A stretch of 63,829 nt of DNA from Fidelibacterota bacterium (GCA_013202385.1 JABMOT010000130.1:1-63829); one strand, 5' to 3'; positions 16,411 through 53,231 are shown, counted from the first letter of the stretch. Numbers and translations: made by a program. Notes: generated by a model not told the origin, from the sequence alone.

Positions 16411-16432
16411 ATTGTCCAACCTGCGTCTTTAC

Positions 16433-16466: not shown

Positions 16467-16531
16467 AAATGAATTTGACCTTAACAGATCCTGAATTTGT
16501 CTTCGATTGAGATCACGCCCAGCGGTTGAAT

Positions 16532-18145: not shown

Positions 18146-18524
18146 GCAATGGATCCTTTATCAATCTTTCAATGAGGGAAATGGGTCTTCATTCACTTAA
18201 TTAAATCGGCTTTTATTGATATTACTTTAGGCATATTATTTCGTTTTTCCAGAAAATGACCCATTCCAATAACATAAACATTTCAAAAAATGCCAGGGGA
18301 ATACGTTTGAGTAAATCTGAAGTGCATTCATCAAATTCCGATTGCCCTCACACAGCAATTATGTGGCCAATATGCGCGGATGTGATTTTAATCGCACATC
18401 AACATGAATCTCAGGTTCCCCTGCCAAAAGTCCTTGTAGACCCGTTAAGTAGTGATACAATATCAGCTGTTTAATTCTGATTCTTGATTCTAATGCGCTA
18501 AATGGTGTCAACAGGGGAAACTGA

Positions 18525-37168: not shown

Positions 37169-37182
37169 ATTAGCCCTCGATA

Positions 37183-38244
37183 TCAATCTTTTATTTTATG
37201 ATTTAGACAAACCAAAGCCCGGCCCACTTTACCTGCCTTCAATTCCGAGAAAGCCCTATTTATATCACCCAGAGAATATTCATGGGTCAACAGCGCGCTC
37301 AAATTAAGTTTATGCTCCAAGTGCCATTCCACATACTTGGGGATATCCAGGTCTGGATTTGTCTCACCACCCCAGGAACCACAGATATTTTTGCCCAATA
37401 TCAAATCCATGGGATCGATTGAGAATTGTTTTCCATGGGGAAGATTCCCGGCGATAATGCATTTACCCCCGTTGTTCATCACCGATTTGAAAGCTGTTTC
37501 CATGGAGACAATAGAGCCGGCAGATTCAATAGAATATTTCACACCTTTCCCTCCGGTTATATCCATGATTACTGCCAGAGCATCCTGGGTCGAGGCATTG
37601 ATTGTGTGAGTTGCCCCGCTTTTTGCTGCAAGCTCCAGTTTATAATCCACCACATCCACAGCAATAATTTGTCCGGCACCCAGGGCTGATGCTACAATCA
37701 CAGCACTTAACCCAATGCCCCCAACTCCAAATATGGCAACACTGTCACCGGGTTGGATGGAAGCATTATTGATAACAATCCCCGCGCCAGTTGGAATAGC
37801 ACATCCCAGCAGGGCAGCTTCTTTCAGGGGCATCTCTTTTGAAATGGGTATCAGTCTGTTTTCACTAATGACTGCTTTTTCCATGAATGTGCTTATAGCA
37901 CCTGAATTAATATTCTGCCCTTTAAGCTGATAGGTTGTCGAGGGGACATCCAGGCCAATGCCTTTTATCCAGGTCAACACAACGTGATCACCGGGTTTAA
38001 CTTTTTTAACTCCTTCACCAATTTCGAGTACCACACCAGAGCCCTCGTGACCAAGGGTGTGGGGCAGGTAATTATCTTTACCTTTAAGCCCTTCTATTTC
38101 GTTCAGTTGAGAGTGGCATAGCCCACTATAGGCAATGTCCACAAGCACTTGGCCAGCCTTAAGACTGGGAATGACCATTTCAATAGTGCGCAACGGTTCA
38201 TTTGTCTCGAAAAGTACTGCTGCCTTGGTTTTCATCGTCGTCAT
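37183..38244 (-). CDS. Zinc-dependent medium-chain alcohol dehydrogenase/reductase
   Basis: GLCHSQ...LGHEGSGVVLEIGEGV..KPGDHVV Zn-binding signature and the GVGGIGLSAV Rossmann motif. Confidence 0.85.
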   Translation of the reverse strand: MTTMKTKAAVLFETNEPLRTIEMVIPSLKAGQVLVDIAYSGLCHSQLNEIEGLKGKDNYLPHTLGHEGSGVVLEIGEGVKKVKPGDHVVLTWIKGIGLDVPSTTYQLKGQNINSGAISTFMEKAVISENRLIPISKEMPLKEAALLGCAIPTGAGIVINNASIQPGDSVAIFGVGGIGLSAVIVASALGAGQIIAVDVVDYKLELAAKSGATHTINASTQDALAVIMDITGGKGVKYSIESAGSIVSMETAFKSVMNNGGKCIIAGNLPHGKQFSIDPMDLILGKNICGSWGGETNPDLDIPKYVEWHLEHKLNLSALLTHEYSLGDINRAFSELKAGKVGRALVCLNHKIKD

Positions 38245-38258: not shown

Positions 38259-39062
38259 TCAGTGCATGGAACGCATTTTACCGCCATCCACCACAAAACA
38301 TGATCCTGTAATCCAGGCAGCATGTTCTGAGGCTAGCAGTAAGATTAGGGGTATGATATCTTTTGGTTGTCCGATACGATTCAGCGGGATGGAATTTACT
38401 GCCAGCTGATTCTCAATAGTAGCAGCTTCATCCACAGTGATCTTTTTCTCGTGTGCAACTCGCTCAATATTTCGGGTCCAGGCCCCACTCTCAAACGTAC
38501 CTGGTACAATACAGTTTACTAATATATGATCTGGTGCAAACAGGCTGGAAAGGTGTTTACTAAGATTGATTAATGCAGCCTTACTGGCTGAGTAATGCGG
38601 GTTAAAGATACCAGGTTGTAACCCCGTTATGGATGCAATATTAACAACTCTAGGATTTTTTGATTTTTTTAAATAAGGGTGTGCCGCTTTCACAGTATGG
38701 ACAACACTGAGCACATTTTTCTTATATGTATCCATCCAATCCTTTTCATCTAAATCAAAAAATCCACCAAATTTATCAGTACTACCCACATTATTGATAA
38801 CGACATCCAGAGATCCCATGAGCGCTACTGCTTTCTCAATGGCCTGCACTACCTCCATTTTGTTGGTCACATCAGCAGGAACTGCAAAAATGTGAGAACT
38901 TATTTTTTTTAATTCGTTCAAAGCTTTGTCCAGCTTGATTTTTTGTCGGCCACATATTGTGACTGTTGATCCTGCTTCAATAAAAGCTTTGGCTAATTCT
39001 AACCCCAGACCCTCGCTGCCTCCGGTGATAAATACGTTCTTATGGGTAAATTGATACATCAT
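38259..39062 (-). CDS. Short-chain dehydrogenase/reductase (SDR)
   Basis: TGGSEGLG Rossmann motif and the YSASKAA catalytic YxxxK. The start overlaps the upstream stop (ATGA). Confidence 0.85.
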   Translation of the reverse strand: MMYQFTHKNVFITGGSEGLGLELAKAFIEAGSTVTICGRQKIKLDKALNELKKISSHIFAVPADVTNKMEVVQAIEKAVALMGSLDVVINNVGSTDKFGGFFDLDEKDWMDTYKKNVLSVVHTVKAAHPYLKKSKNPRVVNIASITGLQPGIFNPHYSASKAALINLSKHLSSLFAPDHILVNCIVPGTFESGAWTRNIERVAHEKKITVDEAATIENQLAVNSIPLNRIGQPKDIIPLILLLASEHAAWITGSCFVVDGGKMRSMH

Positions 39063-39859
39063 TTCAACCTTGTGCTATAGGTTAAGTCCCATTGGTCTCT
39101 GATGCTTAGACCTCCATCTACTGTGATGACCTGTCCGGTAACAAATGAGGCACTTTCCGAGCAGAGGAATTGGACAACATTGGCAATATCATCAGATTTT
39201 CCAACCTTCTGCAAAGGGTGACATGATTCAGCCATTTTTCTATATTCAAGATTGGCCTCACTGCTAAATCTTTCACGATGCTCATCCTGAACAATAAAAC
39301 CGGGTCTCACAGCGTTAACCCTGACTCCCTTTGGACCACCATGCACGGCCAGATAACGAGTGAGGTTGTCCAGTGCCGATTTCGCAAGATGATAAGCAGT
39401 TGATTCCTGGCCGACCATGGTAGAAGCAATGGATGAGATATTTACTATACACCCGGTTGACTTCGCCTTCCACATTTCCTCGATATATGATTGAGCCAGG
39501 AAAAGGGGGGCTTTTATGGATACATCCATGGTTAATTGCCAGTTGTCTTCTGTTTCAGCGAGGGGTGCCGTCCTACTTCCACCTCTGGCATTGTTAACAA
39601 GCGCATCAATCTTCCTGTATTTCTTAAACAGCCGGGAAAGCATTTTCTCAATATCTTGAACTATTTGGAGATCCAGGCAATAATACTCGACCTTCAATCC
39701 ACGCTCCTGACATTCAGTACTAACCGATTGAAGCCGTTTTTCATCATTATCAACCAGAATTACTTTATAACCTGACTCCGCGAATTTCAGAGCTATGTTT
39801 TTACCGATTCCGCGACCGGCACCTGTTACTATGACTCTCTTTTCAGTGTTATTTTTCAA
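39059..39859 (-). CDS. Short-chain dehydrogenase/reductase (SDR)
   Basis: TGAGRGIG and YHLAKSA (YxxxK). TTG start. Confidence 0.85.
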   Translation of the reverse strand: MKNNTEKRVIVTGAGRGIGKNIALKFAESGYKVILVDNDEKRLQSVSTECQERGLKVEYYCLDLQIVQDIEKMLSRLFKKYRKIDALVNNARGGSRTAPLAETEDNWQLTMDVSIKAPLFLAQSYIEEMWKAKSTGCIVNISSIASTMVGQESTAYHLAKSALDNLTRYLAVHGGPKGVRVNAVRPGFIVQDEHRERFSSEANLEYRKMAESCHPLQKVGKSDDIANVVQFLCSESASFVTGQVITVDGGLSIRDQWDLTYSTRLK

Positions 39860-39890: not shown

Positions 39891-40769
39891 TTATGTATTA
39901 TTAATGAGCTGTGCAAATTCATGCTGCAAATTTTTGAATGTGTCCCATTCAACCATAAATTTTTGATTCCTGTTGGCAAATCCGAAACCTTTAGGATTCA
40001 CTAACTCCCGCTCCATCGCTTCCTGATGATGCCCGGGATGCTTCCATATTAAGTAGGGTTTGTCACTCAGAATGGCTCTATTGCAGGGGCCACTGGCCAT
40101 CCCCATAAATGCTGTTGACATATCCACCAGAGCCAGGTCCAATTCTAAATTCCCACCATGATTTTGCACAGAAATAACATTGTGCAATGAGCAAATCACA
40201 TCATCTACCTTGTCCAGGCCGATGATGACAAATTTCACATCAGGCGTTTCTTTTTCAGAATACAGAAAAAAGTCGAGCCAGGATTGTTGATTAGCATTAC
40301 TCTGCAGGTCCAGGGCATTATTTTTTAAATGAATGGTGATCATCTTCGCATCAGCAACATGTCTATCCATCCAGATCTGGGCTAGTTGTTTTACAGTCTC
40401 GGGAGTTTTCATCTGAACTATTTTGTGTGTTTTCTCCCAATATTTTTGAACGGTCTGGTAGCTTTCTGAATAACTGCAACTGGCGTAATCTGTATTTCCC
40501 GGCCACCTGTAGTCGGTAGCACTGACATTTACTTCTTCCTGCCTGTTAACGAAATTGAGATTCCCCAGATACGGGTTTAAGCGTGAGATAATGGTAATTA
40601 TTTCTCTTGAAGTACCTCCCCTGCTGTTGCAAACGTAGAGATCAACATTCTCAACATCTAACACTTCCCTAAGCTGGAGTAATTCTTGTTGAAATATCAG
40701 GAATTTGCCAACGCCATTCTGAATTGCGTTCAAATCCCAGACTCCGACAATATTTGTGTACTTAGTCAT
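39891..40769 (-). CDS. Hypothetical protein, paralogue of the N-terminal domain of the giant glycosyltransferase (GT-B/GT9-like fold suspected)
   Basis: Colinear similarity to residues ~1-340 of the 30962..37168 product, for example WMDRHVADAKMITIHLKNN vs WIDTHVGKKKIVTITLREC, and NLELDLALVDMSTAFMGMASGP vs NLEIRIALYERAYLNMFVANGP. Confidence 0.5.
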   Translation of the reverse strand: MTKYTNIVGVWDLNAIQNGVGKFLIFQQELLQLREVLDVENVDLYVCNSRGGTSREIITIISRLNPYLGNLNFVNRQEEVNVSATDYRWPGNTDYASCSYSESYQTVQKYWEKTHKIVQMKTPETVKQLAQIWMDRHVADAKMITIHLKNNALDLQSNANQQSWLDFFLYSEKETPDVKFVIIGLDKVDDVICSLHNVISVQNHGGNLELDLALVDMSTAFMGMASGPCNRAILSDKPYLIWKHPGHHQEAMERELVNPKGFGFANRNQKFMVEWDTFKNLQHEFAQLINNT

Positions 40770-40791: not shown

Positions 40792-41469
40792 CTATGGATT
40801 GATGAGTCCGACGCCAACGCCCATTAAATAATGCGACATTGGACCATACCCGGTGTGAATGACTTCATCGTTCATTGAAAACATAAATACATTCTTAAAG
40901 TACTTCGATAACAATTCCCGCATTCTACTGTGGGATAAGAGATTCACGTGCCCTTCTTTACTTCCGGCTGAGGCATATTGATTTGCCGTAATGTTTGGTG
41001 TACCCATGATAAATACACCATCCTCATGGAGACATTTGCAGATATTCTCAAAATACAAATGTTCTCTCTCAGTCGGTATATGTTCGATTACATCAAGGGA
41101 ATATGCGGCGGTAAAGACTGCATTCGGATGTTCTTTTGTGATATCCAGGCACTCCATTGAAAAGGCCAAATCGGCATAGCGCTCAAGATTATCCTCGATT
41201 AGGAGTGGCTCCCAATCCACGCCATGGATATGACCAACCGTCTGTGCAACGACGGGAACACCAAACCCATCGCCTACACCGATTTCAACAACGCTTTCAT
41301 GTCCTTCTAACATTTTAGCGACAAATTTGTATCTTGATAATAAGAAGCCTAAATGTCTAGGGTCATGATTCCATATATGCGTTGTATAGGGTCCCAACAC
41401 AGCCGGTTTTGATTTGTAATTATCAAACTGTACTTGATTTTGTTTTTCTTTTGCTTTGTTTTCGTTCAT
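40792..41469 (-). CDS. Class I SAM-dependent methyltransferase
   Basis: Motif I VVEIGVGDGFG, post-I and motif II (AYSLDVIEHI), and size are typical of the Methyltransf_11/23 type. Confidence 0.75.
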   Translation of the reverse strand: MNENKAKEKQNQVQFDNYKSKPAVLGPYTTHIWNHDPRHLGFLLSRYKFVAKMLEGHESVVEIGVGDGFGVPVVAQTVGHIHGVDWEPLLIEDNLERYADLAFSMECLDITKEHPNAVFTAAYSLDVIEHIPTEREHLYFENICKCLHEDGVFIMGTPNITANQYASAGSKEGHVNLLSHSRMRELLSKYFKNVFMFSMNDEVIHTGYGPMSHYLMGVGVGLINP

Positions 41470-41482: not shown

Positions 41483-42397
41483 TCATTTTTCTAATAATAT
41501 TTTAATTTTACGTTTTATGTTGGGTGAAGTAAAACCATAATATTCACACTGATCTTTATAATTTCCATAGTTGTGTGAGAATTCATTGGGAATATTAATG
41601 GCATCTGAATGGATATTATCCAATGCTTTGACTGCACGGATTACATCATCTCCGATACCGCCATATTCAGAGTGTTCTTCAATGACAATATAGTTTTTTG
41701 TTTTTGAAACACTTTCCACCAGGGTAGCGCTATCAAATGGTTTGATTGTGGGGTAATACAAAACTTCAGCGCTGATTTGATTTTGTTTTAATTCTTGAAT
41801 GCTTTCCATCACTGTACCAAGTTGGGGTCCAATGACGACAATGGTGATATCTGTCCCCTCTTGAACCACCACGGCCTCACCAAATTTGATTTTATGGTTT
41901 GGAATCTCATAGTTGTGCTTATGATCCGGCAATCTGAAATAGGTCAGGTAGTCATTCTTATAGGTCTGCTCAAATAAGATTTTGAATTCATTTGGCATGG
42001 CTGGATATACTATCTGGGTGCGAGGTAATGCTTTGATCAAAGCGATATCATCGTGACAATAATGACTGACACCCAAACCTGAATAGTCAAAAGCACTTCC
42101 AACACTAATAAGGTTGCCCCCTCTTTCCTGATAACAAAAGTCCAATTTTATTTGTTCAAAACTGCGTTCGATGAGAAAGGGTGCAATAGTGTGAGCAACC
42201 GGATGAAAACCTACATGGGACAATCCAGCAGACATACTGACAATGGTTGGCTCGCAAATTCCTACGTTGTAAAATCTTCCAGGACACGCCTGTGCAAAGG
42301 GTTGTAATGCAAAATGACTGATATCCCCTACCAGCACCACGAGCTTTGGATCGATCAAGCCAACTTCCAACATGGTTTCAGCGAACGTATTCCTCAT
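41483..42397 (-). CDS. Transketolase, C-terminal (pyrimidine-binding) subunit
   Basis: Split-transketolase B-subunit pattern (VGDISHF...GICEPTIVSMSAGLS..., C-terminal domain). ATGA overlap with the N-terminal subunit gene. Confidence 0.85.
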   Translation of the reverse strand: MRNTFAETMLEVGLIDPKLVVLVGDISHFALQPFAQACPGRFYNVGICEPTIVSMSAGLSHVGFHPVAHTIAPFLIERSFEQIKLDFCYQERGGNLISVGSAFDYSGLGVSHYCHDDIALIKALPRTQIVYPAMPNEFKILFEQTYKNDYLTYFRLPDHKHNYEIPNHKIKFGEAVVVQEGTDITIVVIGPQLGTVMESIQELKQNQISAEVLYYPTIKPFDSATLVESVSKTKNYIVIEEHSEYGGIGDDVIRAVKALDNIHSDAINIPNEFSHNYGNYKDQCEYYGFTSPNIKRKIKILLEK

Positions 42398-43170
42398 GAT
42401 GATAATTCTTCCATAATTTCAGCGTACTCCAGGGGATTAGGAATTTTATGATGCCACGGACCGTGGGTTTCCATAAAACGTACACCTTTGCCTTTAATCG
42501 TTCTGGCGATAATGACAGTTGGTTTTCCATTCGAAGTTCTGCTGAATTTATTAAAAGCAATATCCAACTCAGCTTCATTATGACCGTCACATTCCAGTAC
42601 ATTCCAACCAAACGATTCCCATTGTTTTATGATGTTGGGATGTGGCATGATTTGGGCTGCAGACCCGTTATAATCCACGATGAGGCAGAGGTTTTCCAGG
42701 TTCAAATTTTGCGCGACAAGGGCTGATTCCCAGACCGTCCCTTCATGGGACTCCCCATCACCTACGAGGACAAATACTTTGTTTTCTTTTTTATTGATTT
42801 TATGGCCCAGGGCAATCCCGACTGAATATGGAAAACCATGTCCCAATGATCCAGTCGATGCCTCCACTCCAGGAATTTTTACCCGATCAGGATGACCACC
42901 CAGCATTGCGTTGAATTTGCCATAATTATCCAGATCAGCTTGCGTGATGAAGCCATATTTTTCAAGCACAACATAAAGTGCGACTCCGGCATGACCTTTA
43001 CTTAAAATAAAATAATCCCGATCCGTCCATTCTGGATTGGCACTGTCGTATTTCAGATGATTAGCATACAGCGTGTCAATAATATCGATAACCGAAAAGC
43101 TACTGGGTATATGACCTTCTCCTCCATTGGTGATCGTATTTACAATTGTTTTACGCAGTTCAGTATTCAT
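42394..43170 (-). CDS. Transketolase, N-terminal (ThDP-binding) subunit
   Basis: GHIPSSFS, SKGHAGVALY, GSLGHGFPYSVG and VLVGDGESHEG ThDP-binding motifs. Confidence 0.85.
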   Translation of the reverse strand: MNTELRKTIVNTITNGGEGHIPSSFSVIDIIDTLYANHLKYDSANPEWTDRDYFILSKGHAGVALYVVLEKYGFITQADLDNYGKFNAMLGGHPDRVKIPGVEASTGSLGHGFPYSVGIALGHKINKKENKVFVLVGDGESHEGTVWESALVAQNLNLENLCLIVDYNGSAAQIMPHPNIIKQWESFGWNVLECDGHNEAELDIAFNKFSRTSNGKPTVIIARTIKGKGVRFMETHGPWHHKIPNPLEYAEIMEELSS

Positions 43171-43195
43171 GTTAATTAAACCTCATATCTTAAGC

Positions 43196-44680
43196 TTAGT
43201 GATGGATGCCGAGCTTAGTCCGGGTTTGTTTCCGATGATCATTCAATTGCTCCACACTCATAAACATCATTCGAGCAATTTTTTCTATATTTTCAGGTGT
43301 TTTAAAATTTATCCTATCCCATTCATAGGCTCTTAATACTTTCAGTTCCAATGGGGTAAATTCATCTGTAGTAATAAATCCTTCACTGGTACCAAAATAT
43401 TTTGGATTCCGAAAATCGAAATTTTCGGGTAATAAGTTTTGTTCTTTGGCAATTTTATACAAATCTGTTTTGGGATACGGAGTGGCTATATGGAATGAAA
43501 CCAAATCAAAGTTCATTGCTTCGGCAAACCGGAACGTTTCTCTGATCTCATCCCAGGTTTCTCCAGGCATACCAATCACAAAATTAGCCGCAATCTCGAT
43601 GCCTAACTCATTGCACTTTCTCACTATATTTGGGAATATGCCAAGTTTAACTGGTTTTCGAATAATTTTATGCAGCACCCTGTCATTACCAGATTCTACG
43701 GAAACTGTGATCATCTTGCATCCAGAGTCTTTCATTAATTCCAATAATTCATCATCAAGATGCCAGGCAGAAACATTGGGCATTTTCCAGGTAATATTAT
43801 ATTTACGGTCAATGAATGCTTGCATAATGGTCATGGCATGCTCTCTATCATCTAAAAAACATTCATCGAGAAAACTCAGATGACGCACACCATGATTTTG
43901 AATTAAACTATCAATCTCTTCCAGCACATCCTCAGTAGAACGATAATTTATTCCTCTACCTCTGATCGTCCGTGCTGCACAAAAAGAGCAATTGTATCTG
44001 CAGCCATACGAAGTCAGTAAGATTGCGGTTGGTCCCTGAAAGCTGTAGTTGTATTCTTTGGCAGACTGCGTTAAATAAAACTCAACATCAATCTTTGAAT
44101 AGTCCGGCTTAATGTTGGGATCAATATTAATCTCAGTACTTTTCGGTCGACGAATAATGTTCTCGCCATTAGCATCGCAATAACCGATACCTGAAATTTT
44201 TCTGGCTTCCTCAAATTGCCCTTCAAGAAGATGGTGAATGAATTCCAAAATGCCACCCTCTGCCGGACCAATGAAGATATAGTCGATATTTTTATCCTGA
44301 AGGGCTTCCTCACTCATGAGGCTCGGATAAATTCCACCAAATACCGTGATGCAATCCGGAGTTGCCTGCTTCACTATTTCAAATGCCTTGTGATATTGCT
44401 GGAAATATTCTACTGAAATGCCGGAGACCAGAAATATCCTGGGTGAGATGGTCTTGATCTGCTGTAAACATTCTGCTTCACTTAAATCCAACGCATTTGC
44501 ATCCAGAAGGAAGAAATCGTGATTTTCCTTCAAAATGGCTGTAAGAATTAAGGCTGAATGCGGTACCACCATCCAGGGGCGCTTGTTAAACCAACGCGTA
44601 TTCGGAATAAACAAGAGTACATCATTGGGTGTTGAGCTTTTCACCCTTGTGGGGCTATCAGATTTGTTGATGTGGTTCAT
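43196..44680 (-). CDS. B12-binding-domain radical SAM enzyme (class B)
   Basis: N-terminal cobalamin-binding-like Rossmann region, then the CRYNCSFC (CxxxCxxC) cluster and the radical SAM core. GGAGAG RBS. Confidence 0.85.
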   Translation of the reverse strand: MNHINKSDSPTRVKSSTPNDVLLFIPNTRWFNKRPWMVVPHSALILTAILKENHDFFLLDANALDLSEAECLQQIKTISPRIFLVSGISVEYFQQYHKAFEIVKQATPDCITVFGGIYPSLMSEEALQDKNIDYIFIGPAEGGILEFIHHLLEGQFEEARKISGIGYCDANGENIIRRPKSTEINIDPNIKPDYSKIDVEFYLTQSAKEYNYSFQGPTAILLTSYGCRYNCSFCAARTIRGRGINYRSTEDVLEEIDSLIQNHGVRHLSFLDECFLDDREHAMTIMQAFIDRKYNITWKMPNVSAWHLDDELLELMKDSGCKMITVSVESGNDRVLHKIIRKPVKLGIFPNIVRKCNELGIEIAANFVIGMPGETWDEIRETFRFAEAMNFDLVSFHIATPYPKTDLYKIAKEQNLLPENFDFRNPKYFGTSEGFITTDEFTPLELKVLRAYEWDRINFKTPENIEKIARMMFMSVEQLNDHRKQTRTKLGIHH

Positions 44681-44710
44681 TATATCTCTCCATTTCTCAG
44701 CATCATCAGA

Positions 44711-45472
44711 CTAGAAGAAACATCTTCCCTGTCCACCATCTACAGTAATAGCAGACCCGACGATAAAGGATGCATGTTGGGAGCATAAAAAAGTCACAAT
44801 GTTACCTATCTCCTCAGGTGACCCAAACCGTTGGATGGCCATCCTTTCAGACAGATATTTCTCTACGTGTTCAGGTCGCTCTTTTGAAGTCATATCCCAA
44901 TAGCCTCCCTCGGTGAAAACGGCTCCGGGTAATACGGCAGATATATTTATGCCGTCAGGAGATACATAGCGGCCTAAACTACGGGTATAGGCATTCAGCG
45001 CTGCTTTTATGGAACAATAAGGTGCGGTGCCTTGATTTTCCAGGGAGGCTATTGAAGAAATATGAACAATGCGTCCCCACTTGTTTAATCTCATCTGCGG
45101 AATCAGCATTTGATTCAGCTCAACCGCTATCTCAAGATTAAAACGATAAACCTGACGCCACTCTTCTATACCACACAGTGGATCTGTGAAACCTAAATTT
45201 CCACCAACATTATGTACAACAATATCGGGATGTCCGAATTTGTCAATCATTTCGGCAACCATTTTTTGGGGATTCCCCTCTGGAACCAGATCATAGGCAA
45301 GCCCAATATGATTTCCAGGATGGGTGTCCAAAAATGAGTTGATATCCCCTTGATTTCGGGCAACGATGGCGACCTGGACACCTTCTTTTGCCAGGCTGTC
45401 TGCGATAGCTCTTCCAAGACCACGACTTGCTCCCGTGACCAATGCTTTTTTATTTTTAATTCCTAAGTCCAT
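44711..45472 (-). CDS. Short-chain dehydrogenase/reductase (SDR)
   Basis: TGASRGLG and YCSIKAA (YxxxK). Confidence 0.85.
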   Translation of the reverse strand: MDLGIKNKKALVTGASRGLGRAIADSLAKEGVQVAIVARNQGDINSFLDTHPGNHIGLAYDLVPEGNPQKMVAEMIDKFGHPDIVVHNVGGNLGFTDPLCGIEEWRQVYRFNLEIAVELNQMLIPQMRLNKWGRIVHISSIASLENQGTAPYCSIKAALNAYTRSLGRYVSPDGINISAVLPGAVFTEGGYWDMTSKERPEHVEKYLSERMAIQRFGSPEEIGNIVTFLCSQHASFIVGSAITVDGGQGRCFF

Positions 45473-45479
45473 GTGCTTC

Positions 45480-46673
45480 CTAAATGATCATTAAAGGATT
45501 AAGAATCCTTTTGGGGTGGTGTTTATTTAATTTGTTTAGGATCGGTAATCTATTGTCCAAAGCAGTCAGTAAAATATTTGCAGCCGAGAAATCAAGAGTA
45601 CCGGGTTGTTGAATTTTTACCGGTAAATTGATATAACCAAGTCCTGCTTTTTGAGGATCGTTGTCCAGGATATTTTTAAAATTTGAGAAGTCGGTACCAA
45701 GATGATATCCCAGGATGGGTAGCATTAATGCGGCCCCATAACCGTACCATACTTCATTTTCTAAATTATTTAGTATTTCAGCAGTGATGGCCATTTGATT
45801 TTTAAACGACTGATATTTATCCTGAATAGCTGCCATGGACTTTTCTGGATTAAATACAATGGGATTATTCGCTGAAGTACTCTTAGCGCGTTTTTTAAAG
45901 GCAATAATCAACGCGCCCCAATAATTATAATTAATGGTATAATCGATGAGGACAGCATCCAGCAGACCAAGCATGTGCAGAAAGGATTGTACACTAAAAT
46001 ACTGGAGGTGCTGATGGAATACTTGATCAAAACGTAAATTCTCCAGTAGGGGGTCAAAACAGGGAAACTCAAATACAAATATTGTTTCATCACCTGTTTT
46101 CAGAAAAAGGGATTCTAGCAGCGCTTTTGGATCTTCAATATGTTCCAATGTGTGTTGTGATACCACCAATTCAGGATAATCATCAAGGAAATCACTAAAA
46201 TCTATGCTCTCTATTTTATCTCCAGAGAAATTGATTTCACCGTCCTTATATACTTGTGGATTGTCCTTCCAAATCAAATCAACCCCAAGGTACTGCTTTG
46301 ATTTATTTTCCTGCTTGAATAGTTTTAACAGATAACCATCATTGCACCCCAAATCGACAATACTTTTAAATACTCTACCCGGAAACAGAGTATCGATATA
46401 GCGCGAAAAATATTGCGAACCTCCACTAGCCGTTTCGCTGGCTGATGTTCGAAATCCGTATGTGTCCCCGTACATAAAATTGACATCGATGATATTTTTT
46501 ATCTGGGCATGACCACACGCCGTACAAAGCAGGAGTTCTTGATCATAATTCCTAAATTTACTGTCCTGCCCAGATTTACTATAAATGCCAGTTAAAGGAA
46601 ATTCAGGAAGCTTGATGACACTCTCCAAAGGACTACCACAAACAGAACATTTTGGATTCATATTCTTTTGCAT
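45480..46673 (-). CDS. Zinc-ribbon C-methyltransferase of the NDP-hexose C-methyltransferase (TylCIII-like) type
   Basis: N-terminal CSVCGS...CTACGH zinc ribbon, a class I SAM motif IVDLGCNDGYLL and a C-terminal extension. The family assignment is from memory of the Methyltransf_13/14 architecture. Confidence 0.7.
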   Translation of the reverse strand: MQKNMNPKCSVCGSPLESVIKLPEFPLTGIYSKSGQDSKFRNYDQELLLCTACGHAQIKNIIDVNFMYGDTYGFRTSASETASGGSQYFSRYIDTLFPGRVFKSIVDLGCNDGYLLKLFKQENKSKQYLGVDLIWKDNPQVYKDGEINFSGDKIESIDFSDFLDDYPELVVSQHTLEHIEDPKALLESLFLKTGDETIFVFEFPCFDPLLENLRFDQVFHQHLQYFSVQSFLHMLGLLDAVLIDYTINYNYWGALIIAFKKRAKSTSANNPIVFNPEKSMAAIQDKYQSFKNQMAITAEILNNLENEVWYGYGAALMLPILGYHLGTDFSNFKNILDNDPQKAGLGYINLPVKIQQPGTLDFSAANILLTALDNRLPILNKLNKHHPKRILNPLMII

Positions 46674-47729
46674 TTAAAATGGACCTTTAAACCAGTCCCC
46701 TGGCACATCATGGGGTGTATCACCGCGTTCAACCAATTCAGATCCAACAATGTTTTTATTAAACATCTCTGCAATAGTGTCAATAATATCCTCTGACCTC
46801 TTATAAAATCCGCGAGTTAAGCCCCTGCTGGTAGGCGTTGGGAAATCTGGAAGTGCAAGTCGTTTGGGAGCTTGCTTAAGCGCATTAAAACAATCCATGC
46901 TTACTCTGGCGACAATTTCACCGGCAACAGAATTCGTCGCCACGCCAGTGTCAATAGCAAGCAGTCGGCCTGTTTTCTTCACGGAAGCATAGATAAGGTC
47001 ATAATCCAGAGGCTTAATGCTAAGTAGGTCAATTAATTCGCAGGAGATTCCCTCTCTTTTTAAAATCTCCACAGCATGCAAGGCTTCAACAGACATGTAT
47101 GAGAATGAAACGACTGTAATATCATCACCTTGCGTCAAACAGGCTGCCTTCCCGATTGGAACCCGGTAGTCACCATCGGGAACTTCACCGTTTAAATTAT
47201 GCAACCAGCGGTGTTCGATAAATATGACGGGATTGTCATCAAAAATACTCTCAAGCAGCAAGCCCTTCGCATCAGCGGCCGTGGTTGGCATGACCACTTT
47301 TAGCCCGGGGATATGGGCGAATAGTGCCTGTAAGTTTTGTGAATGTGTTGGTCCTTGCCCCCATCCACGACCAACGATAAGTCTGATGGTAATGGGAACA
47401 GAGCTATTGCCGCCGAACATATAATGCCACTTTGCCGCACTATTTACCAGCTGGTCCATGGCCAACAGAAAGAAATCCAGCCTTTGATGGGTCATGATGG
47501 GACGAACGCCATTCAATGCTGCGCCAACTGCGATTCCAGTCATTGCATTTTCAGATGTGGGCATATCAAAAACCCGCGAACTGCCAAATTTTTCCTGCAA
47601 ACCACTTGAAGTACCGAAAACCCCTTTAGGATCCGGTATTCCCAACCCGTAACAGATTACTGACTGATCCATTTCCATTGACGTTGCAATGGCATCATTG
47701 ATGGCTTGTGAGTAAGTGATAATACTCAT
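46674..47729 (-). CDS. ThDP-dependent 2-oxoacid dehydrogenase E1 beta-subunit homologue
   Basis: Transketolase pyrimidine-binding plus C-terminal domains typical of PDH/AcoB E1 beta (FDMPTSENAMTGIAVGAA, HSQN...). The start overlaps the E1-alpha stop (ATGA). Confidence 0.85.
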   Translation of the reverse strand: MSIITYSQAINDAIATSMEMDQSVICYGLGIPDPKGVFGTSSGLQEKFGSSRVFDMPTSENAMTGIAVGAALNGVRPIMTHQRLDFFLLAMDQLVNSAAKWHYMFGGNSSVPITIRLIVGRGWGQGPTHSQNLQALFAHIPGLKVVMPTTAADAKGLLLESIFDDNPVIFIEHRWLHNLNGEVPDGDYRVPIGKAACLTQGDDITVVSFSYMSVEALHAVEILKREGISCELIDLLSIKPLDYDLIYASVKKTGRLLAIDTGVATNSVAGEIVARVSMDCFNALKQAPKRLALPDFPTPTSRGLTRGFYKRSEDIIDTIAEMFNKNIVGSELVERGDTPHDVPGDWFKGPF

Positions 47730-48397
47730 AGTGTATTTTTTTCTGCATATAAGCTGGTAAAGGCCATTCCCGGATCCGGAAAAGGTGAAGCTATGGCAAA
47801 TTCAAAGGCTTGATCCACTTCATGCTGAACATCCTTATGGTATTTTTCGACGTTACTCGCTGATAAGCTTAGTAGTTTTTCCTCGCAATGCTTGAGGGGA
47901 TCTTTTGATTGCCAGGAAAGGAATTCCTGTTCGCTTCGATACCCGATAGTATTGTCATAATTTGGACCGCAATGCTCCAGCCATCGGTAAGTTGAAAATT
48001 CAATAAATTGAGGACCTTGACCGAGTTTAATTTTCTCCACAGCGCTATTCGTTTTTTCGTAAACTTCGGCCAGATCGTTGCCATTTCCCGTTGTTGTTTG
48101 AATGCCCATAGCGCGAACCATCTCATGAATTTTTCTATTTTTGGGTTGCCGTACACTCAAGGGTGAATACACAGAATACAGATTGTTTTCACAGATAAAT
48201 AACACGGGCAAGTTCCTGACCACAGCGAAGTTGACGGACTCATAAAAGACACCCTCTTCGATAGCGCCATCACCAAAAAATACGCAGCTAACATTGTTGG
48301 TTTTCTGTAATTGAATTGAAAGGCCCAGTCCAACGGCAATGGGTATGGTATTACCCACAATTGCAGTACTGCCCATAAATCCAACAGATTTATCACT
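47726..48397 (-). pseudogene. 5'-truncated E1 alpha-subunit homologue (keeps the GDG...NN ThDP motif but lacks roughly the N-terminal third)
   Basis: Homology begins at about ..VGFMGSTAIVGNTIPIAVGLG and includes FFGDGAIEEG...ICENN. The GGSMH-type region expected just upstream is absent. The in-frame sequence upstream of ~48397 is only an out-of-frame reading of cheW. The first plausible in-homology ATG is at 48376. The ORF track extends to 48478. Confidence 0.55.
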
Positions 48398-48806
48398 TAC
48401 GATCAATTCCTGAGGTAACCAGATCAGGTGTCGGTTCAATCTGATCGGACGGGATGCGAAGCACTTCACGGACGGCATCCACGATGAATCCTACCAGGGT
48501 TCCATTCGTCTCAACAACCATAATTCGGGTTTCCTGGGCGTTCTTTTTACTGTCTTCAACCAGACCAAATCTACGCCTTAAATCAATGATGGGGATAATC
48601 TGTCCCCTCAAATTGATGACGCCTTCAACGAAGGGTGGAGACTCCGGAATATGGGTAATGTTCACAAGACGATTGATTTCTCTTACTTTGCTGATGTCCA
48701 CGCAATAGCCTTCAGTACCCAGTTGGAAGGCAACCAGCTGGCGCAAATCCGTGGTTGCAGTAGTGTAGCTATCTGAATGGTTCTTGGATATGGTGGCCGT
48801 TGTCAT
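48393..48806 (-). CDS. cheW: CheW-like coupling protein, apparently 3'-truncated
   Basis: CheW motifs are present (FVEGVINLRGQIIPIIDLRRRFGL; VGFIVDAVREVLRI). The ORF stops at ..TSGIDRK followed by tandem TGA TAA, where CheW proteins normally continue for ~20-25 more residues (the ..G..rlvilLDidkil strands). AAGGAG RBS. Confidence 0.75.
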   Translation of the reverse strand: MTTATISKNHSDSYTTATTDLRQLVAFQLGTEGYCVDISKVREINRLVNITHIPESPPFVEGVINLRGQIIPIIDLRRRFGLVEDSKKNAQETRIMVVETNGTLVGFIVDAVREVLRIPSDQIEPTPDLVTSGIDRK

Positions 48807-50566: not shown

Positions 50567-51544
50567 CTAAAAACTTACCACTGTTTGGATGACAATTTGA
50601 TTATCCGGGTCATTTTCATTGACCCAGTTTGATAAATATTCTGCGCGACATTCAAAGCCCTCACTAATCTTATAGCCAAGACCTGCTGTAAGTCGTTTTG
50701 CTGTTTCCGTATCTTTTTCCCAGACACCGTAGCGCACGGAGAGAAAAACGGGTAGATTTACTATTTGCTCCATATCCAAGTCTAATTGTGCATAATATCC
50801 ACTATGTTGGTCATCTGCTCCCGAGTTATCAAAGTCACCCTCTAACACAGCAGTCGCTTGCTGGTATTCAAAACGAGCTTCCAGGGGACCGAAGGCGCTT
50901 TGAAAATCCACACCAATTATATTGGGGACTGCTCCTGAATCATTGTCTGCCGTTTGAGTTGCAAACGAAGCACCTATTTCTAAAATATTTGCCAGGGGAA
51001 TTACAGCTCTTCCACCAGTAGCTATACCAGCCTGGGCACCATTGACTATAAAGTAATTGAAATTGAGAAATGAAAGTTCACAGTACAGGTTAAGCCCCAT
51101 ATCATTCCAACTGTCAATCGTCTTTTGATTTAATAGTGGAGCACTTACAAGTTTACGATCCGGTGAAGGGATGTACAGGTAATCAAGCCCAAACGGCACA
51201 TCAAACTGGCCGACCATGAGGCCAGAATGCTGGATATAACCACCCCGTGGTGGGTGGGCTTCATCAGAGCCGGTCAGGTGAATATCAAGAAAGCCGGCAC
51301 CTGCCTCAAAAAGTCCATCATCGGCATTATACGCAATGGCACCCTCAAACGTAACTCGGGGCGATACAATGGCTGATAAATCGAGTTCAAATTGGCCATA
51401 GCCAAAAGCGGCTTCACCGTCTTCAGTTAATTCTTTGGTGTATACAATATCGGCGAACCCGGAATATTGAATTTGCCCTGTTACAGTATTTGCACAGATA
51501 AGTAAAAGTGTCGTCGCCAGAATCGTTCTTTGGGTCATTGACAT
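50567..51544 (-). CDS. Outer-membrane beta-barrel (porin-like) protein
   Basis: Signal peptide, alternating amphipathic beta-strand pattern rich in Y/G/D, and a C-terminal ...VIQTVVSF with terminal Phe. Confidence 0.6.
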   Translation of the reverse strand: MSMTQRTILATTLLLICANTVTGQIQYSGFADIVYTKELTEDGEAAFGYGQFELDLSAIVSPRVTFEGAIAYNADDGLFEAGAGFLDIHLTGSDEAHPPRGGYIQHSGLMVGQFDVPFGLDYLYIPSPDRKLVSAPLLNQKTIDSWNDMGLNLYCELSFLNFNYFIVNGAQAGIATGGRAVIPLANILEIGASFATQTADNDSGAVPNIIGVDFQSAFGPLEARFEYQQATAVLEGDFDNSGADDQHSGYYAQLDLDMEQIVNLPVFLSVRYGVWEKDTETAKRLTAGLGYKISEGFECRAEYLSNWVNENDPDNQIVIQTVVSF

Positions 51545-52277: not shown

Positions 52278-53099
52278 TTATTTGAAAAGTTGGAGAACAA
52301 CCTGGGGAGCCGAATTAGCCTGGACTAAAGATGAAACCGCTGTTTGTTGCAAAATTTGCAGCTTCATAACTTCCATCTGCTCCTTCGCAAAATCAGCATC
52401 TTCAATCACACTCCTGGTTGCCTCGGCATTTGTGACCGCAACGGAAAGTGTGCGTTCCTTTGTTGCCAAGCGAACTTTGTATTGACCCACTTCCTGAATA
52501 CGAGCAGAGAGTGTATCGATAGCAGCGCCGGATGTCGTGATTGCAGCACTGGCACCATTTGCTGTTGAAAGATTAATTCCGCTGAGACCCAATGCACTGG
52601 AATCCCCATTACCAAGTGAAATGGTCAGCTCATCAGTTGCGCCCTCACCAGTATGAAATGCCCCGGAATAGCCACCATCGATCAAGCTATCGCCATTAAA
52701 TGTGGTTTCACCAACAATGTCATCGATCTCTGCGATCAGCGCTGTTACCTGATCGTTAATGGATGCGCGTTGGTTAGTTGATAATGAATAATCAGAAGCC
52801 TGCGTGGCCTTTTCCTTGATGGTCTGCAAAATATCCATGATATTCTGATAACCACCCTCTGCTACATTCATTACGTTTTTGGCCTGACTTACGTTCTGAA
52901 GAGCGGCTTCAAGCCCTCTGCGACGTGTCTCCAAACTTTTCGCCAGCTGATAACCTGCTGGATCCTCTGAAGCAGAGTTGATCCTCTTACCAGTTGCCAA
53001 ACGTAGCTGATGCATACCAATCTTCTGATTGATAATACTCAATGAATTCATCGACTGCATCGCCTGAACGTTCGTGTAAATTCTCATCAGGTCACTCAT
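52278..53099 (-). CDS. fliC: Flagellin (short, ~273 aa)
   Basis: N-terminal MRIYTNVQAM...ATGKRINSASEDPAG and C-terminal ILQQTAVSSLVQANSAPQVVLQLF flagellin signatures. The ATG at 53099 is preceded by a perfect AAGGAGG. The ORF track extends to 53138. Confidence 0.9.
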   Translation of the reverse strand: MSDLMRIYTNVQAMQSMNSLSIINQKIGMHQLRLATGKRINSASEDPAGYQLAKSLETRRRGLEAALQNVSQAKNVMNVAEGGYQNIMDILQTIKEKATQASDYSLSTNQRASINDQVTALIAEIDDIVGETTFNGDSLIDGGYSGAFHTGEGATDELTISLGNGDSSALGLSGINLSTANGASAAITTSGAAIDTLSARIQEVGQYKVRLATKERTLSVAVTNAEATRSVIEDADFAKEQMEVMKLQILQQTAVSSLVQANSAPQVVLQLFK

Positions 53100-53231
53100 T
53101 TGAACCTCCTTGTTTAAAAACGATGACGTCCTTGTCACCTCTTTCGATCAATTCTCTCTCTCGGAGGGCTGTGATCGCTTCAGCCCATTTAGTGTTTGAC
53201 TTTTTTCAATAAATTTCAACACTCAACATAA

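What the first reader, a model, noticed from the sequence alone, without database searches (positions are those of the whole stretch)
41483..48397. Two different ThDP carbon-transfer modules (E1 alpha/beta and split transketolase) plus a B12-radical SAM enzyme and a C-methyltransferase in one sugar operon
Seen: within 7 kb there are an E1 alpha/beta pair, a TylCIII-type zinc-ribbon C-methyltransferase, an SDR, a class B (cobalamin-domain, CxxxCxxC) radical SAM enzyme and a two-gene transketolase. A further SAM methyltransferase and three more reductases follow.

Established knowledge:
- ThDP enzymes in deoxysugar clusters install two-carbon branches. Examples are YerE in yersiniose A biosynthesis and the PDH-E1-like AviB1/AviB2 pair proposed for the eurekanate branch of avilamycin.
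- Class B radical SAM enzymes methylate unactivated carbons (for example GenK and Fom3).

Inference: having both ThDP systems with up to three methylation activities and four to five ketoreductase-type enzymes implies a heavily branched or chain-extended, methylated sugar. I know of no characterised example in a flagellar or protein glycan. The lack of a nucleotidyltransferase and 4,6-dehydratase in the operon means the entry substrate is unclear.
Basis: partly seen in the sequence, partly recalled or inferred. Interest (0 to 1): 0.75.

Follow-up and report, generated by a model that had tools for sequence, protein, structure and literature searches.

The report
Deletion-truncated branched-heptose surface-glycan operon
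Next to the flagellin gene of a Marinimicrobia bacterium lies an operon with two different thiamine-dependent carbon-adding enzymes, a B12 radical-SAM enzyme, methylases and reductases for building an unusual branched sugar, but a deletion in this genome has removed the pathway's entry genes and a third of one key enzyme.

Summary
One correction is needed: the E1-alpha gene is only a 3' remnant. It matches residues 104-325 of its 321-331-aa relatives and abuts a 3'-truncated CheW gene at about 48395-48400. Two other assemblies carry the same junction, so it is a real deletion.

Intact relatives, including another Marinimicrobia genome (L087), show what was lost. The missing genes are a kinase/nucleotidyltransferase like HldE, a phosphoheptose isomerase like GmhA, a 4,6-dehydratase like RmlB, an epimerase/reductase and a methyltransferase. 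The entry substrate is therefore most likely a nucleotide-activated heptose.

Neither ThDP module is housekeeping. The E1 clade sits in sugar loci without E2. The split transketolase keeps its cofactor and catalytic residues, but four substrate-binding residues are replaced, and this variant defines a large family.

The unannotated 292-aa protein is predicted to have a heptosyltransferase-like (GT9) fold.

The closest known systems are the E1-like sugar-branching enzymes and the proposed split transketolases of actinomycete antibiotics. I read this as a new variant of a known kind, found widely in surface-glycan and flagellar loci, and probably disabled in this genome.

The parts
52278..53138 (-). 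Flagellin (Flagellin_N + Flagellin_C), followed by a strong terminator at 51993-51970
48393..48806 (-). CheW, 3'-truncated (137 aa). It lacks about 35-45 C-terminal residues, and its stop codon lies in E1-alpha-derived sequence
   Evidence: Pfam CheW profile matched only at positions 1-103 of 138; PDB CheW alignments; sequence
48390..48405 (.). Deletion junction between the CheW-derived and E1-alpha-derived sequence
   Evidence: Nucleotide homology to the intact locus L003 starts at window 48395 = L003 10309, codon ~104. The same junction is in L001 (99.97% nt identity) and L002 (100%)
47726..48376 (-). E1-alpha remnant (216 aa from the first ATG). It corresponds to residues ~110-325 of intact 321-331-aa homologues and keeps the GDG...NN ThDP motif, but lacks the N-terminal third
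46674..47729 (-). E1-beta-like subunit, full length (351 aa)
   Evidence: 84% identical to the L003 protein
45480..46673 (-). Zinc-ribbon SAM C-methyltransferase of the TylC3/TcaB9 kind
   Evidence: PF08421 + PF13489; PDB sugar 3-C-methyltransferases 4rv9, 3ndi, 5t64
44711..45472 (-). SDR that directly precedes the split TK in relatives (55-68% identity)
43196..44680 (-). B12-binding radical SAM enzyme with CxxxCxxC. It belongs to an uncharacterised ~480-aa family that recurs beside split TKs
42394..43170 (-). Transketolase-like N subunit (PP domain); catalytic His residues and the ThDP/Mg motif are kept
41483..42397 (-). Transketolase-like C subunit (Pyr + C domains) with a remodelled substrate pocket: equivalents of human Ser345, His416, Asp424 and Arg474 are replaced
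40792..41469 (-). Class I SAM methyltransferase (225 aa)
39891..40769 (-). 292-aa protein with no Pfam family; predicted GT-B fold closest to GT9 heptosyltransferases
39059..39859 (-). SDR ketoreductase-type enzyme (266 aa)
38259..39062 (-). SDR ketoreductase-type enzyme (267 aa)
37183..38244 (-). Zn-dependent alcohol dehydrogenase, a regular partner of the E1 pair in relatives
30962..37186 (-). 2074-aa multidomain glycosyltransferase (methyltransferase domain, two GT2 domains, GT1, a further GT2-like domain, TPR); 70% identical to the one ending the intact Marinimicrobia-like locus L003
28563..29921 (-). GT2 + TPR glycosyltransferase at the end of the gene string

Best explanation
This is the downstream two-thirds of an operon that tailors a nucleotide-activated heptose into a branched, methylated sugar for a surface glycan. 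In this lineage the target is most likely flagellin.

In intact relatives the pathway starts with five genes:
- a GmhA-like phosphoheptose isomerase;
- an HldE-like kinase/nucleotidyltransferase;
- an RmlB-like 4,6-dehydratase, which would make an NDP-4-keto-6-deoxyheptose;
- a second SDR;
- a methyltransferase.

Proposed steps, all inferred:
- The E1 alpha/beta pair decarboxylates pyruvate and adds the two-carbon acetyl unit to the keto sugar.
- The Zn-ADH or an SDR reduces that branch.
- The split transketolase-like enzyme, paired with its own SDR, adds a second two-carbon (hydroxyacetyl) unit to a sugar carbonyl.
- The zinc-ribbon C-methyltransferase, the B12 radical SAM enzyme and the small methyltransferase add methyl groups.
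- The GT9-like protein and the giant TPR glycosyltransferase transfer the product.

Shown for this genome: one deletion between co-oriented genes removed the 3' end of CheW, all entry genes and the first ~103 codons of E1-alpha. As encoded, the E1 step is dead. The whole pathway is probably disabled unless it is fed from elsewhere in the genome.
For: Deletion:
- Both genes are truncated at one point.
- Homology to intact L003 starts exactly at 48395.
- The junction is identical in L001 and L002.
- The lost E1-alpha segment carries nearly invariant motifs.

Entry genes:
- L003, the P0012 locus, L087 (Marinimicrobia MAG) and L088 all have HldE-like, SIS, dehydratase-like, epimerase and MT genes directly upstream of E1-alpha.
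- L087 continues with the same downstream order as the window.
- 35 of 41 GTDB loci with E1-alpha at 50% identity or more carry at least one of these genes.
- PDB relatives of the SIS protein are almost all phosphoheptose isomerases; those of the 333-aa SDR are dTDP-glucose 4,6-dehydratases.
- GmhB-like phosphatases occur in 12 loci.
- The 292-aa protein models as a GT9 heptosyltransferase-like fold (pLDDT 92).

Not housekeeping:
- The E2 motif occurs only in loci with E1-alpha at 41% identity or less.
- The TK C-subunit pocket is replaced in all 8 glycan-locus proteins and in about 136 of the 150 nearest cluster representatives, while the TK N-subunit catalytic residues are kept.

Flagellar link:
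- Flagellin lies in the window.
- FlgK, FlgL, FliW and CsrA flank L003.
- A Maf-type protein and FleQ/FleS flank the core cluster in the complete genome of Colwellia sp. RE-S-Sl-9.

Chemistry precedents (PMC12247030; PMC4753412):
- E1-like alpha-KADH2 enzymes branch keto sugars with C2 from pyruvate.
- Split TKs are proposed to transfer hydroxyacetyl to a keto sugar.
Against: - No biochemical data exist for any member.
- The HldE-like and GmhA-like proteins score far below NCBIfam equivalog cut-offs (175 vs 521 bits; 77 vs 209 bits). The HldE-like protein also has the reverse domain order. The activated sugar could therefore be another ketose-derived sugar.
- Every gene downstream of the junction is an intact, full-length ORF. 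That fits a very recent deletion, but also fits continued use of the remaining genes.
- The split-TK role is unproven even in Streptomyces.
- B12 radical SAM enzymes are not all methylases. The best NCBIfam hit is the ring-contracting HpnJ, far below its cut-off.
- Only 63.8 kb of the genome was examined, so a second copy of the entry genes cannot be excluded.
- The roles I assign to transketolase residues rest on my own knowledge of human, yeast and E. coli TK structures.
Confidence: 0.6

Rival explanations
1. The remaining genes still work. The TK/SDR, C-methyltransferase, radical SAM enzyme, reductases and glycosyltransferases act on a nucleotide sugar supplied from elsewhere in the genome (for example LPS ADP-heptose plus another dehydratase). 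The deletion then only changed the glycan (loss of the E1 branch) and did not abolish it.
For: - All downstream ORFs are full length and match homologues without gaps.
- TK plus radical SAM modules occur without any E1 gene in Geobacter sp. OR-1 (L085).
- Cassettes between E1-beta and the ADH differ between relatives, so the modules are combinable.
Against: - The dedicated dehydratase, epimerase and methyltransferase that always accompany the E1 pair are gone. No substitute lies within 63.8 kb.
- Intact ORFs are equally expected after a recent deletion.
Confidence: 0.25
2. The E1 and transketolase genes are housekeeping acetoin/pyruvate dehydrogenase and pentose-phosphate enzymes that merely sit beside glycan genes. 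At most they supply sedoheptulose-7-phosphate.
For: - Sequence similarity to PDH E1-beta (229 bits to the PDH E1-beta in PDB 3duf) and to the Carboxydothermus split TK (230 and 134 bits).
- Transketolase does make the heptose precursor in normal metabolism (my own knowledge).
Against: - No E2 gene lies near any E1-alpha relative at 42% identity or more.
- The nearest relatives all lie in sugar loci.
- The TK C-subunit lacks the equivalents of Ser345, His416, Asp424 and Arg474, consistently across the family.
- The TK is tightly coupled to a dedicated SDR.
Confidence: 0.03
3. The CheW/E1-alpha junction is an assembly chimera, and the real genome has an intact operon.
For: The window comes from a metagenome-assembled genome, where chimeric joins do occur.
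Against: - The same junction appears in a JGI contig (2 mismatches in 7112 nt) and in a Logan contig from another run (0 mismatches in 4647 nt).
- No repeat lies at the junction.
- The two genes are co-oriented, as expected for a simple deletion.
Confidence: 0.04
4. The operon makes a diffusible small molecule (an antibiotic-like glycoside or cyclitol), not a cell-surface glycan.
For: - Both ThDP enzyme types are so far described in antibiotic gene clusters.
- The radical SAM enzyme's best family hit is the ring-contracting HpnJ.
Against: - There are no scaffold genes (PKS, NRPS or nucleoside).
- The operon ends in large TPR glycosyltransferases next to flagellin.
- Relatives are flanked by flagellar genes, Maf, Wzm/Wzt transporters or GT9 genes.
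Confidence: 0.05

Closest known systems
alpha-KADH2-type (PDH E1 alpha/beta-like) sugar-branching enzymes: AviB1/AviB2 (avilamycin), Pau11/Pau12 (paulomycin), the aldgamycin pair, KbDH-alpha/beta (kibdelomycin)
   Same: - Two adjacent genes for E1-alpha-like and E1-beta-like subunits.
- No E2 or E3 partner.
- Located in a nucleotide-sugar pathway beside a 4,6-dehydratase and a branch ketoreductase.
- Expected reaction: a C2 (acetyl) unit from pyruvate added to a keto sugar (PMC12247030, PMC4753412).
   Different: - The examples described in those papers are in actinomycete antibiotic clusters acting on deoxyhexoses or pentoses. This clade sits in surface-glycan or flagellar loci of many mostly non-actinomycete phyla, behind heptose-type activation genes.
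- In this window the alpha subunit is truncated.
- No direct sequence comparison with the actinomycete enzymes could be made.
Split-gene transketolases proposed for hydroxyacetyl transfer in miharamycin/amipurimycin biosynthesis
   Same: - Two-gene TK in a sugar pathway.
- Preceded by an oxidoreductase thought to create the keto acceptor. Here the SDR is adjacent in relatives.
   Different: - The 13 candidates listed in the 2025 review are all from Streptomycetes, and none is characterised.
- The family here spans many phyla and has a defined pocket change (H416G, D424L and others).
- Whether the Streptomyces enzymes share that change was not testable.
YerE/ErwE-type ThDP flavoenzymes of O-antigen branched sugars (yersiniose, erwiniose, caryophyllose)
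   Same: ThDP-dependent acyl branching of a 4-keto sugar in a surface polysaccharide, followed by reduction (PMC9306805).
   Different: - A different ThDP superfamily (single-chain, acetolactate-synthase-like).
- CDP-3,6-dideoxyhexose acceptors.
- One related locus (L088) carries both an E1 pair and a YerE-like gene.
NDP-heptose pathways (GmhA/HldE/GmhB; 6-deoxyheptose formation in Campylobacter and Yersinia)
   Same: Relatives carry a SIS isomerase whose PDB relatives are GmhA, a PfkB kinase fused to a nucleotidyltransferase, GmhB-like phosphatases and a 4,6-dehydratase.
   Different: - Scores lie far below equivalog cut-offs.
- Domain order is reversed relative to HldE.
- The dehydratase is RmlB-like, not GMD-like.
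- None of these genes is present in the window.
Class B (cobalamin-dependent) radical SAM enzymes such as GenK, Fom3 and TsrM
   Same: N-terminal B12-binding domain plus a radical SAM core with CxxxCxxC.
   Different: - It does not reach the cut-off of any curated family. The best hit is HpnJ at 162 vs 578 bits.
- The closest solved structures are only distantly related (AprD4, TsrM).
- Methylation is assumed, not shown.

Membership tests
alpha-KADH2 / E1 alpha-beta sugar-branching enzymes | Complete alpha subunit with the whole PP domain | tested here: not met
   The window protein covers only residues 104-325 of the homologues. The conserved N-terminal motifs are absent.
alpha-KADH2 / E1 alpha-beta sugar-branching enzymes | ThDP-binding GDG...NN motif in alpha and an intact beta subunit encoded adjacently | tested here: met
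   FFGDGAIEEG...CENNLYS is present. E1-beta is 351 aa with full Transket_pyr + Transketolase_C domains.
alpha-KADH2 / E1 alpha-beta sugar-branching enzymes | No E2/E3 partners; embedded in a nucleotide-sugar cluster with a keto-sugar-forming dehydratase | tested here: met
   No E2 motif in any locus with E1-alpha at 42% identity or more. A dehydratase-like gene is present in 27 of 41 close loci. In the window itself the dehydratase is deleted.
alpha-KADH2 / E1 alpha-beta sugar-branching enzymes | Transfers C2 from pyruvate to a keto sugar | not testable with these tools
   Needs an enzyme assay.
Canonical (pentose-phosphate) transketolase | ThDP/Mg motif, cofactor-activating Glu and catalytic His residues | tested here: met
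   His37, His77, His110, His258, Asp155, Asn185 and Glu366 (human numbering) are kept.
Canonical (pentose-phosphate) transketolase | Substrate phosphate- and acceptor-binding residues Ser345, His416, Asp424, Arg474 (human numbering; roles from my own knowledge of TK structures) | tested here: not met
   They are F, G, L and D in the window. They are replaced in all 8 glycan-locus homologues and in most of the 150 nearest representatives.
Split-gene keto-sugar transketolases (miharamycin/amipurimycin type) | Separate N and C genes in a sugar cluster, coupled to an oxidoreductase | tested here: met
   The genes overlap at 42394-42397. An SDR directly precedes them in L006, L012, L020, L084, L087 and the P0012 locus. 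In the window the radical SAM gene lies between.
Split-gene keto-sugar transketolases (miharamycin/amipurimycin type) | Sequence relatedness to the Streptomyces enzymes; hydroxyacetyl transfer to a ketone | not tested
The activity is unproven in the literature.
Class B radical SAM | Cobalamin-binding domain plus CxxxCxxC radical SAM core | tested here: met
   PF02310 42.9 bits (cut-off 32.1), PF04055 91.4 bits, CRYNCSFC at residues 227-234.
Class B radical SAM | Methyl transfer to an unactivated carbon | not testable with these tools
   No curated family cut-off is reached.
TylC3/TcaB9 NDP-sugar 3-C-methyltransferases | N-terminal four-Cys zinc ribbon plus a class I SAM domain | tested here: met
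   PF08421 37.2 bits (cut-off 31.3). CSVC...CTAC motifs. PDB 4rv9 at 1.3e-16 and TcaB9 at 1e-12.
TylC3/TcaB9 NDP-sugar 3-C-methyltransferases | C-terminal domain PF08484 | tested here: inconclusive
   Not detected in the window protein at E <= 0.001. Only faint hits in two homologues.
NDP-heptose biosynthesis (GmhA/HldE/GmhB) | Isomerase, kinase/nucleotidyltransferase and phosphatase genes present | tested here: not met
   Absent from the whole 63.8-kb window. Present in intact relatives.
GT9 heptosyltransferases | GT-B fold resembling WaaC/WaaF | tested here: met
   Model pLDDT 92. Foldseek top hits 3tov, 2h1h and 1psw (probability 1.0, TM 0.56-0.62). No sequence-level Pfam or PDB match, so family membership itself remains open.

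The most novel reading that the evidence does not exclude
Many bacteria, including Marinimicrobia, SAR11-type Pelagibacter, Colwellia, Verrucomicrobia and Desulfobacterota, may build nine- to eleven-carbon branched sugars by adding one or two ThDP-derived C2 units to a nucleotide-activated heptose. They may then attach these sugars to flagellin or surface polysaccharides, in some cases through Maf-type transferases, as an alternative to nonulosonic acids. On this reading, the variant-pocket split transketolase would be a new, widespread class of C-C ligase acting on nucleotide sugars, and its partner B12 radical SAM enzyme would act on the same sugar.
Probability: 0.3. Interest if true: 0.85.

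Novelty: new variant of a known kind. Interest (0 to 1): 0.6.

Why it matters
- E1-like and split-transketolase sugar-branching enzymes are so far described in actinomycete antibiotic pathways. According to a 2025 review, the split-transketolase candidates are all from Streptomycetes and none is characterised.
- This locus and its relatives point to a large uncharacterised family of both enzyme types. They are combined on a heptose-type scaffold in flagellar and surface-glycan loci of abundant environmental bacteria.
- That offers testable candidates for new C-C bond-forming biocatalysts.
- It also points to a possible unknown class of flagellin or O-antigen sugars. The Colwellia isolate, which has a complete genome, is a possible experimental entry point.
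- The window also shows such a cassette being disabled by a deletion, as expected for fast-evolving surface-glycan loci.

Tried and rejected
- Housekeeping PDH/TK reading: rejected on gene neighbourhoods, absence of E2 and pocket residues.
- Assembly chimera at the junction: rejected, because two other assemblies show it.
- Naturally short or split E1-alpha: rejected. Full-length homologues are 321-331 aa, and the few short ones are mostly on short contigs or labelled partial.
- 292-aa protein: sequence searches gave nothing (Pfam; NCBIfam; PDB). Only the structure model was informative.
- The two small methyltransferases (window MT225 and the deleted MT220) are not paralogues.
- Promoter scans were at chance level and uninformative.
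- Literature searches for heptose + transketolase + glycosylation island, O-antigen + PDH E1, and flagellin glycosylation + transketolase found nothing relevant.
- Krug et al. 2024 (Angew. Chem.) and Romo et al. 2019 (JACS) are not held in the library. I therefore could not check whether the published set of about 120 alpha-KADH2 clusters already includes heptose-type loci.
- No relative closer than 75% identity with an intact locus exists in the protein collection. The exact ancestral interval between CheW and E1-alpha could not be reconstructed.

Full report
**1. What is in the window**

All genes of the finding lie on the minus strand in one tightly packed string. Pfam and NCBIfam searches give this order, in the direction of transcription:

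| Coordinates | Gene |
|---|---|
| 53138-52278 | flagellin, followed by a strong terminator at 51993-51970 |
| 51544-50567 | 325-aa protein without a family |
| 50492-48885 | MCP |
| 48806-48393 | CheW |
| 48478/48376-47726 | E1-alpha-like ORF |
| 47729-46674 | E1-beta |
| 46673-45480 | zinc-ribbon C-methyltransferase |
| 45472-44711 | SDR |
| 44680-43196 | B12-binding radical SAM enzyme |
| 43170-42394 | transketolase N subunit |
| 42397-41483 | transketolase C subunit |
| 41469-40792 | SAM methyltransferase |
| 40769-39891 | 292-aa protein with no family |
| 39859-39059, 39062-38259 | two SDRs |
| 38244-37183 | Zn-ADH |
| 37186-30962 | 2074-aa multidomain glycosyltransferase with TPR repeats |
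| 30958-29978 | cNMP-binding protein |
| 29921-28563 | GT2-TPR protein |

- The radical SAM enzyme has CRYNCSFC at residues 227-234.
- The C-methyltransferase's only solved relatives of note are sugar 3-C-methyltransferases (4rv9, TcaB9, 5t64).
- The window comes from a Candidatus Marinimicrobia/Neomarinimicrobiota MAG. This fits the T9SS-sorted proteins elsewhere in the window.

**2. The correction: E1-alpha is a remnant at a deletion junction**

- The E1-alpha ORF matches only positions 89-299 of 300 of Pfam E1_dh and 100-314 of 315 of TIGR03182.
- Its homologues are 321-331 aa. The window protein aligns without gaps to residues 104-325 of the closest one (P0002, 75% identity).
- The missing segment holds nearly invariant motifs of this clade (MRCPTHLSxGQE, STHRxHxHY, GKGGSMHL). 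The remnant therefore cannot be a working alpha subunit.
- Directly upstream, CheW matches only profile positions 1-103 of 138. It ends about 35-45 residues short of solved CheW proteins.
- The CheW stop codon (48395-48393) lies in E1-alpha-derived sequence.
- Nucleotide homology to the intact locus L003 begins exactly at window 48395, which corresponds to L003 codon ~104.
- Two co-oriented genes, one missing its 3' end and the other its 5' end, joined at one point, are the signature of a simple deletion.
- The junction is not an assembly artefact. A JGI contig (L001, 2 mismatches in 7112 nt) and a Logan contig from another run (L002, identical over 4647 nt) carry it.

**3. What was deleted: intact relatives**

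- *L003.* This is the closest intact locus. It runs FlgN-FlgK-FlgL-FliW-CsrA-ParA-like, then the sugar genes:
  - a protein fusing a cytidylyl/adenylyltransferase-like domain to a PfkB kinase;
  - a SIS_2 isomerase;
  - a 333-aa RmlB-like SDR;
  - a 315-aa SDR;
  - a 220-aa methyltransferase;
  - E1-alpha and E1-beta;
  - a variable cassette (methyltransferase, DegT aminotransferase, sulfotransferase);
  - the Zn-ADH and a 2057-aa glycosyltransferase 70% identical to the window's.
- *L087.* This is another Marinimicrobia MAG. It has the same five upstream genes, then E1-alpha (322 aa), E1-beta, a C-methyltransferase-like gene, SDR, TK-N, TK-C, the homologue of the 292-aa protein, SDR, an aldo-keto reductase and the ADH. 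This is the window's order without the deletion.
- *P0012 locus.* It shows the same set beside a Wzm/Wzt transporter.
- *Family assignments.* NCBIfam and PDB searches place the upstream proteins nearest to HldE domains, GmhA (the PDB hits are almost all phosphoheptose isomerases) and dTDP-glucose 4,6-dehydratases. All score below equivalog cut-offs, and the HldE-like protein has the reverse domain order.
- *The window.* It has none of these genes anywhere in its 63.8 kb.
They belong to the operon and were lost with the 5' end of E1-alpha.

**4. How general the cluster is**

80 loci were kept.
- A tblastn matrix shows a recurrent core across many phyla: GmhA-like, HldE-like, dehydratase-like, second SDR, MT220, E1-alpha, E1-beta and Zn-ADH.
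- 35 of 41 loci with E1-alpha at 50% identity or more have at least one of the four sugar-activation or SDR genes.
- The E1 + split TK combination recurs in:
  - Desulfonema (L006);
  - Verrucomicrobia (L012);
  - Methylococcaceae (L020, which also has the radical SAM enzyme, the 292-aa homologue and both SDRs);
  - Parcubacteria (L061);
  - Pelagibacter (L038, L044);
  - L084, L087 and the P0012 locus.
- L088 combines the E1 pair with a YerE-like single-chain ThDP enzyme and an HMGL-type aldolase. Two different ThDP enzymes in one cluster is therefore a recurring theme.
- GmhB-like phosphatases occur in 12 loci.

**5. Neither ThDP module is housekeeping**

- The E2 catalytic motif DHRxxDG occurs only in five loci, whose E1-alpha is 41% identical or less. 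It is absent from all closer loci.
- The best solved relative of the transketolase is the Carboxydothermus split TK. Similarity is strong for the N subunit (230 bits) and weaker for the C subunit (134 bits).
- The N subunit keeps His37, His77, His110, His258, Asp155 and Asn185 (human numbering). The C subunit keeps Arg318, Glu366 and His at position 428.
- Four residues that bind the substrate phosphate and acceptor in canonical transketolases are replaced: Ser345, His416, Asp424 and Arg474. Their roles are from my own knowledge of TK structures. They are F, G, L and D in the window, and are replaced in all eight glycan-locus homologues.
- A full HMMER scan of 1.84 billion representatives found 323 proteins at E <= 1e-30. 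Of the 150 nearest, about 136 have Gly at the His416 position, 90 have Gly + Leu, and only one has the canonical His/Asp/Arg set.
- This is a large, distinct transketolase-like family. Its ThDP chemistry is intact, but its substrate channel differs.
- The family is regularly preceded by a dedicated SDR.
- The radical SAM enzyme belongs to an uncharacterised ~480-aa family (50% identity or more in many phyla). In all three extra contexts examined it lies beside a split TK, methyltransferases and reductases.

**6. The 292-aa protein**

- It has 42 homologues, no Pfam domain and no PDB sequence match.
- An AlphaFold2 model from the family alignment is confident (pLDDT 92, pTM 0.91).
- Its best structural matches are GT9 heptosyltransferases: Veillonella GT9, WaaC, WaaF and TibC (probability 1.0, TM about 0.6).
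- This is a second, independent hint that the pathway handles a heptose-type nucleotide sugar.

**7. Where the glycan goes**

- Flagellar linkage is seen three times:
  - flagellin in the window;
  - FlgK/FlgL/FliW/CsrA beside L003;
  - in the complete genome of Colwellia sp. RE-S-Sl-9 (L013), a Maf-type MptE-like/TPR protein on one side of the core cluster and FleQ/FleS on the other.
- Other relatives sit beside Wzm/Wzt transporters or GT9 genes.
- The sugar is therefore a general surface-glycan building block, and flagellin is its likely target in this lineage.
- Between the window and L003, only the flanks (E1 genes; ADH + giant glycosyltransferase) are homologous at the DNA level. The cassette between them differs, as expected for a hypervariable glycan locus.

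**8. Mechanism: shown versus inferred**

Shown:
- gene content;
- the truncation and its reality;
- the conserved upstream genes in relatives;
- the non-housekeeping character of both ThDP modules;
- the fold of the 292-aa protein.

Inferred:
- Sedoheptulose-7-P is isomerised, phosphorylated and nucleotidylated.
- The product is dehydrated to a 4-keto-6-deoxyheptose.
- The E1 pair adds an acetyl unit from pyruvate, as proposed or shown for alpha-KADH2 enzymes of aldgamycin, avilamycin, paulomycin and kibdelomycin (PMC12247030; PMC4753412).
- The branch is then reduced.
- The TK-like enzyme with its SDR adds a hydroxyacetyl unit, as proposed but never demonstrated for the miharamycin and amipurimycin split TKs.
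- The C-methyltransferase, radical SAM enzyme and small methyltransferase add methyl groups.

In this genome the E1 step cannot work as encoded, and the entry steps are missing. The intact downstream ORFs suggest a recent deletion, but they leave room for residual function.

**9. Novelty and score**

- The enzyme kinds are known.
- What appears undescribed in the literature I could reach is their joint use on a heptose-type scaffold, in flagellar and surface-glycan loci, across many non-actinomycete phyla.
- The size and defined pocket signature of the TK-like family also appear undescribed there.
- I could not read Krug et al. 2024. That paper catalogues about 120 alpha-KADH2 clusters, so part of the E1 observation may already be recorded.
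- I rate this a new variant of a known kind, with interest 0.6. The family is worth experiments, but this particular copy is a damaged one.

Noticed in passing
window 48393-48806 (-): The CheW gene after the MCP gene is 3'-truncated by the same deletion and is probably non-functional. Any chemotaxis genes that followed it were lost too.
   Followed up: partly
window 39891-40769 (-): The 292-aa protein defines a small family (42 homologues) with no Pfam model. It is confidently predicted as a compact GT-B fold closest to GT9 heptosyltransferases. Invariant residues include H147, N158, the G223-M-x-S-G-x-C-N230 stretch and H247.
   Followed up: yes
L013 (Colwellia sp. RE-S-Sl-9, CP182631) 670-20900: In a complete genome, the heptose/E1 core cluster sits between a Maf-type (MptE-like + TPR) protein and FleQ/FleS. 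No nonulosonic-acid genes were seen among the ORFs annotated in the 21-kb locus. This is a possible experimental system.
   Followed up: partly
L088 (Neomarinimicrobiota MAG) 10001-20648: A related cluster combines the E1 alpha/beta pair with a YerE-like single-chain ThDP enzyme, an HMGL-like aldolase, a ferredoxin-like protein and a HAD hydrolase.
   Followed up: no
L003 5115-6665; L087 1-1004; L088 5268-6788: The kinase/nucleotidyltransferase of these clusters has the nucleotidyltransferase domain first and the PfkB kinase second, the reverse of E. coli HldE. It scores far below the HldE cut-off.
   Followed up: partly
window 30962-37186 (-): A 2074-aa single protein combines a SAM methyltransferase domain, two GT2 domains, a GT1 domain, a further GT2-like domain and C-terminal TPR repeats. 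It is conserved (70% identity) in L003.
   Followed up: partly
L085 (Geobacter sp. OR-1, BAZF01000013) 1-21428: A locus beside a GT9 gene holds a split TK, two B12-binding radical SAM enzymes and five further radical SAM genes (three of them with SPASM domains), but no E1 pair.
   Followed up: no
window 50567-51544 (-): A 325-aa protein between flagellin and the MCP gene has no family (only weak SlpA_C and OMP beta-barrel hits). It is also present in L001.
   Followed up: no
window 4099-7503, 12453-15167, 15391-16410, 18525-23165 (+): Four large secreted proteins carry T9SS C-terminal sorting domains. One is a 1546-aa CotH-kinase / lamin-tail / beta-helix protein.
   Followed up: no
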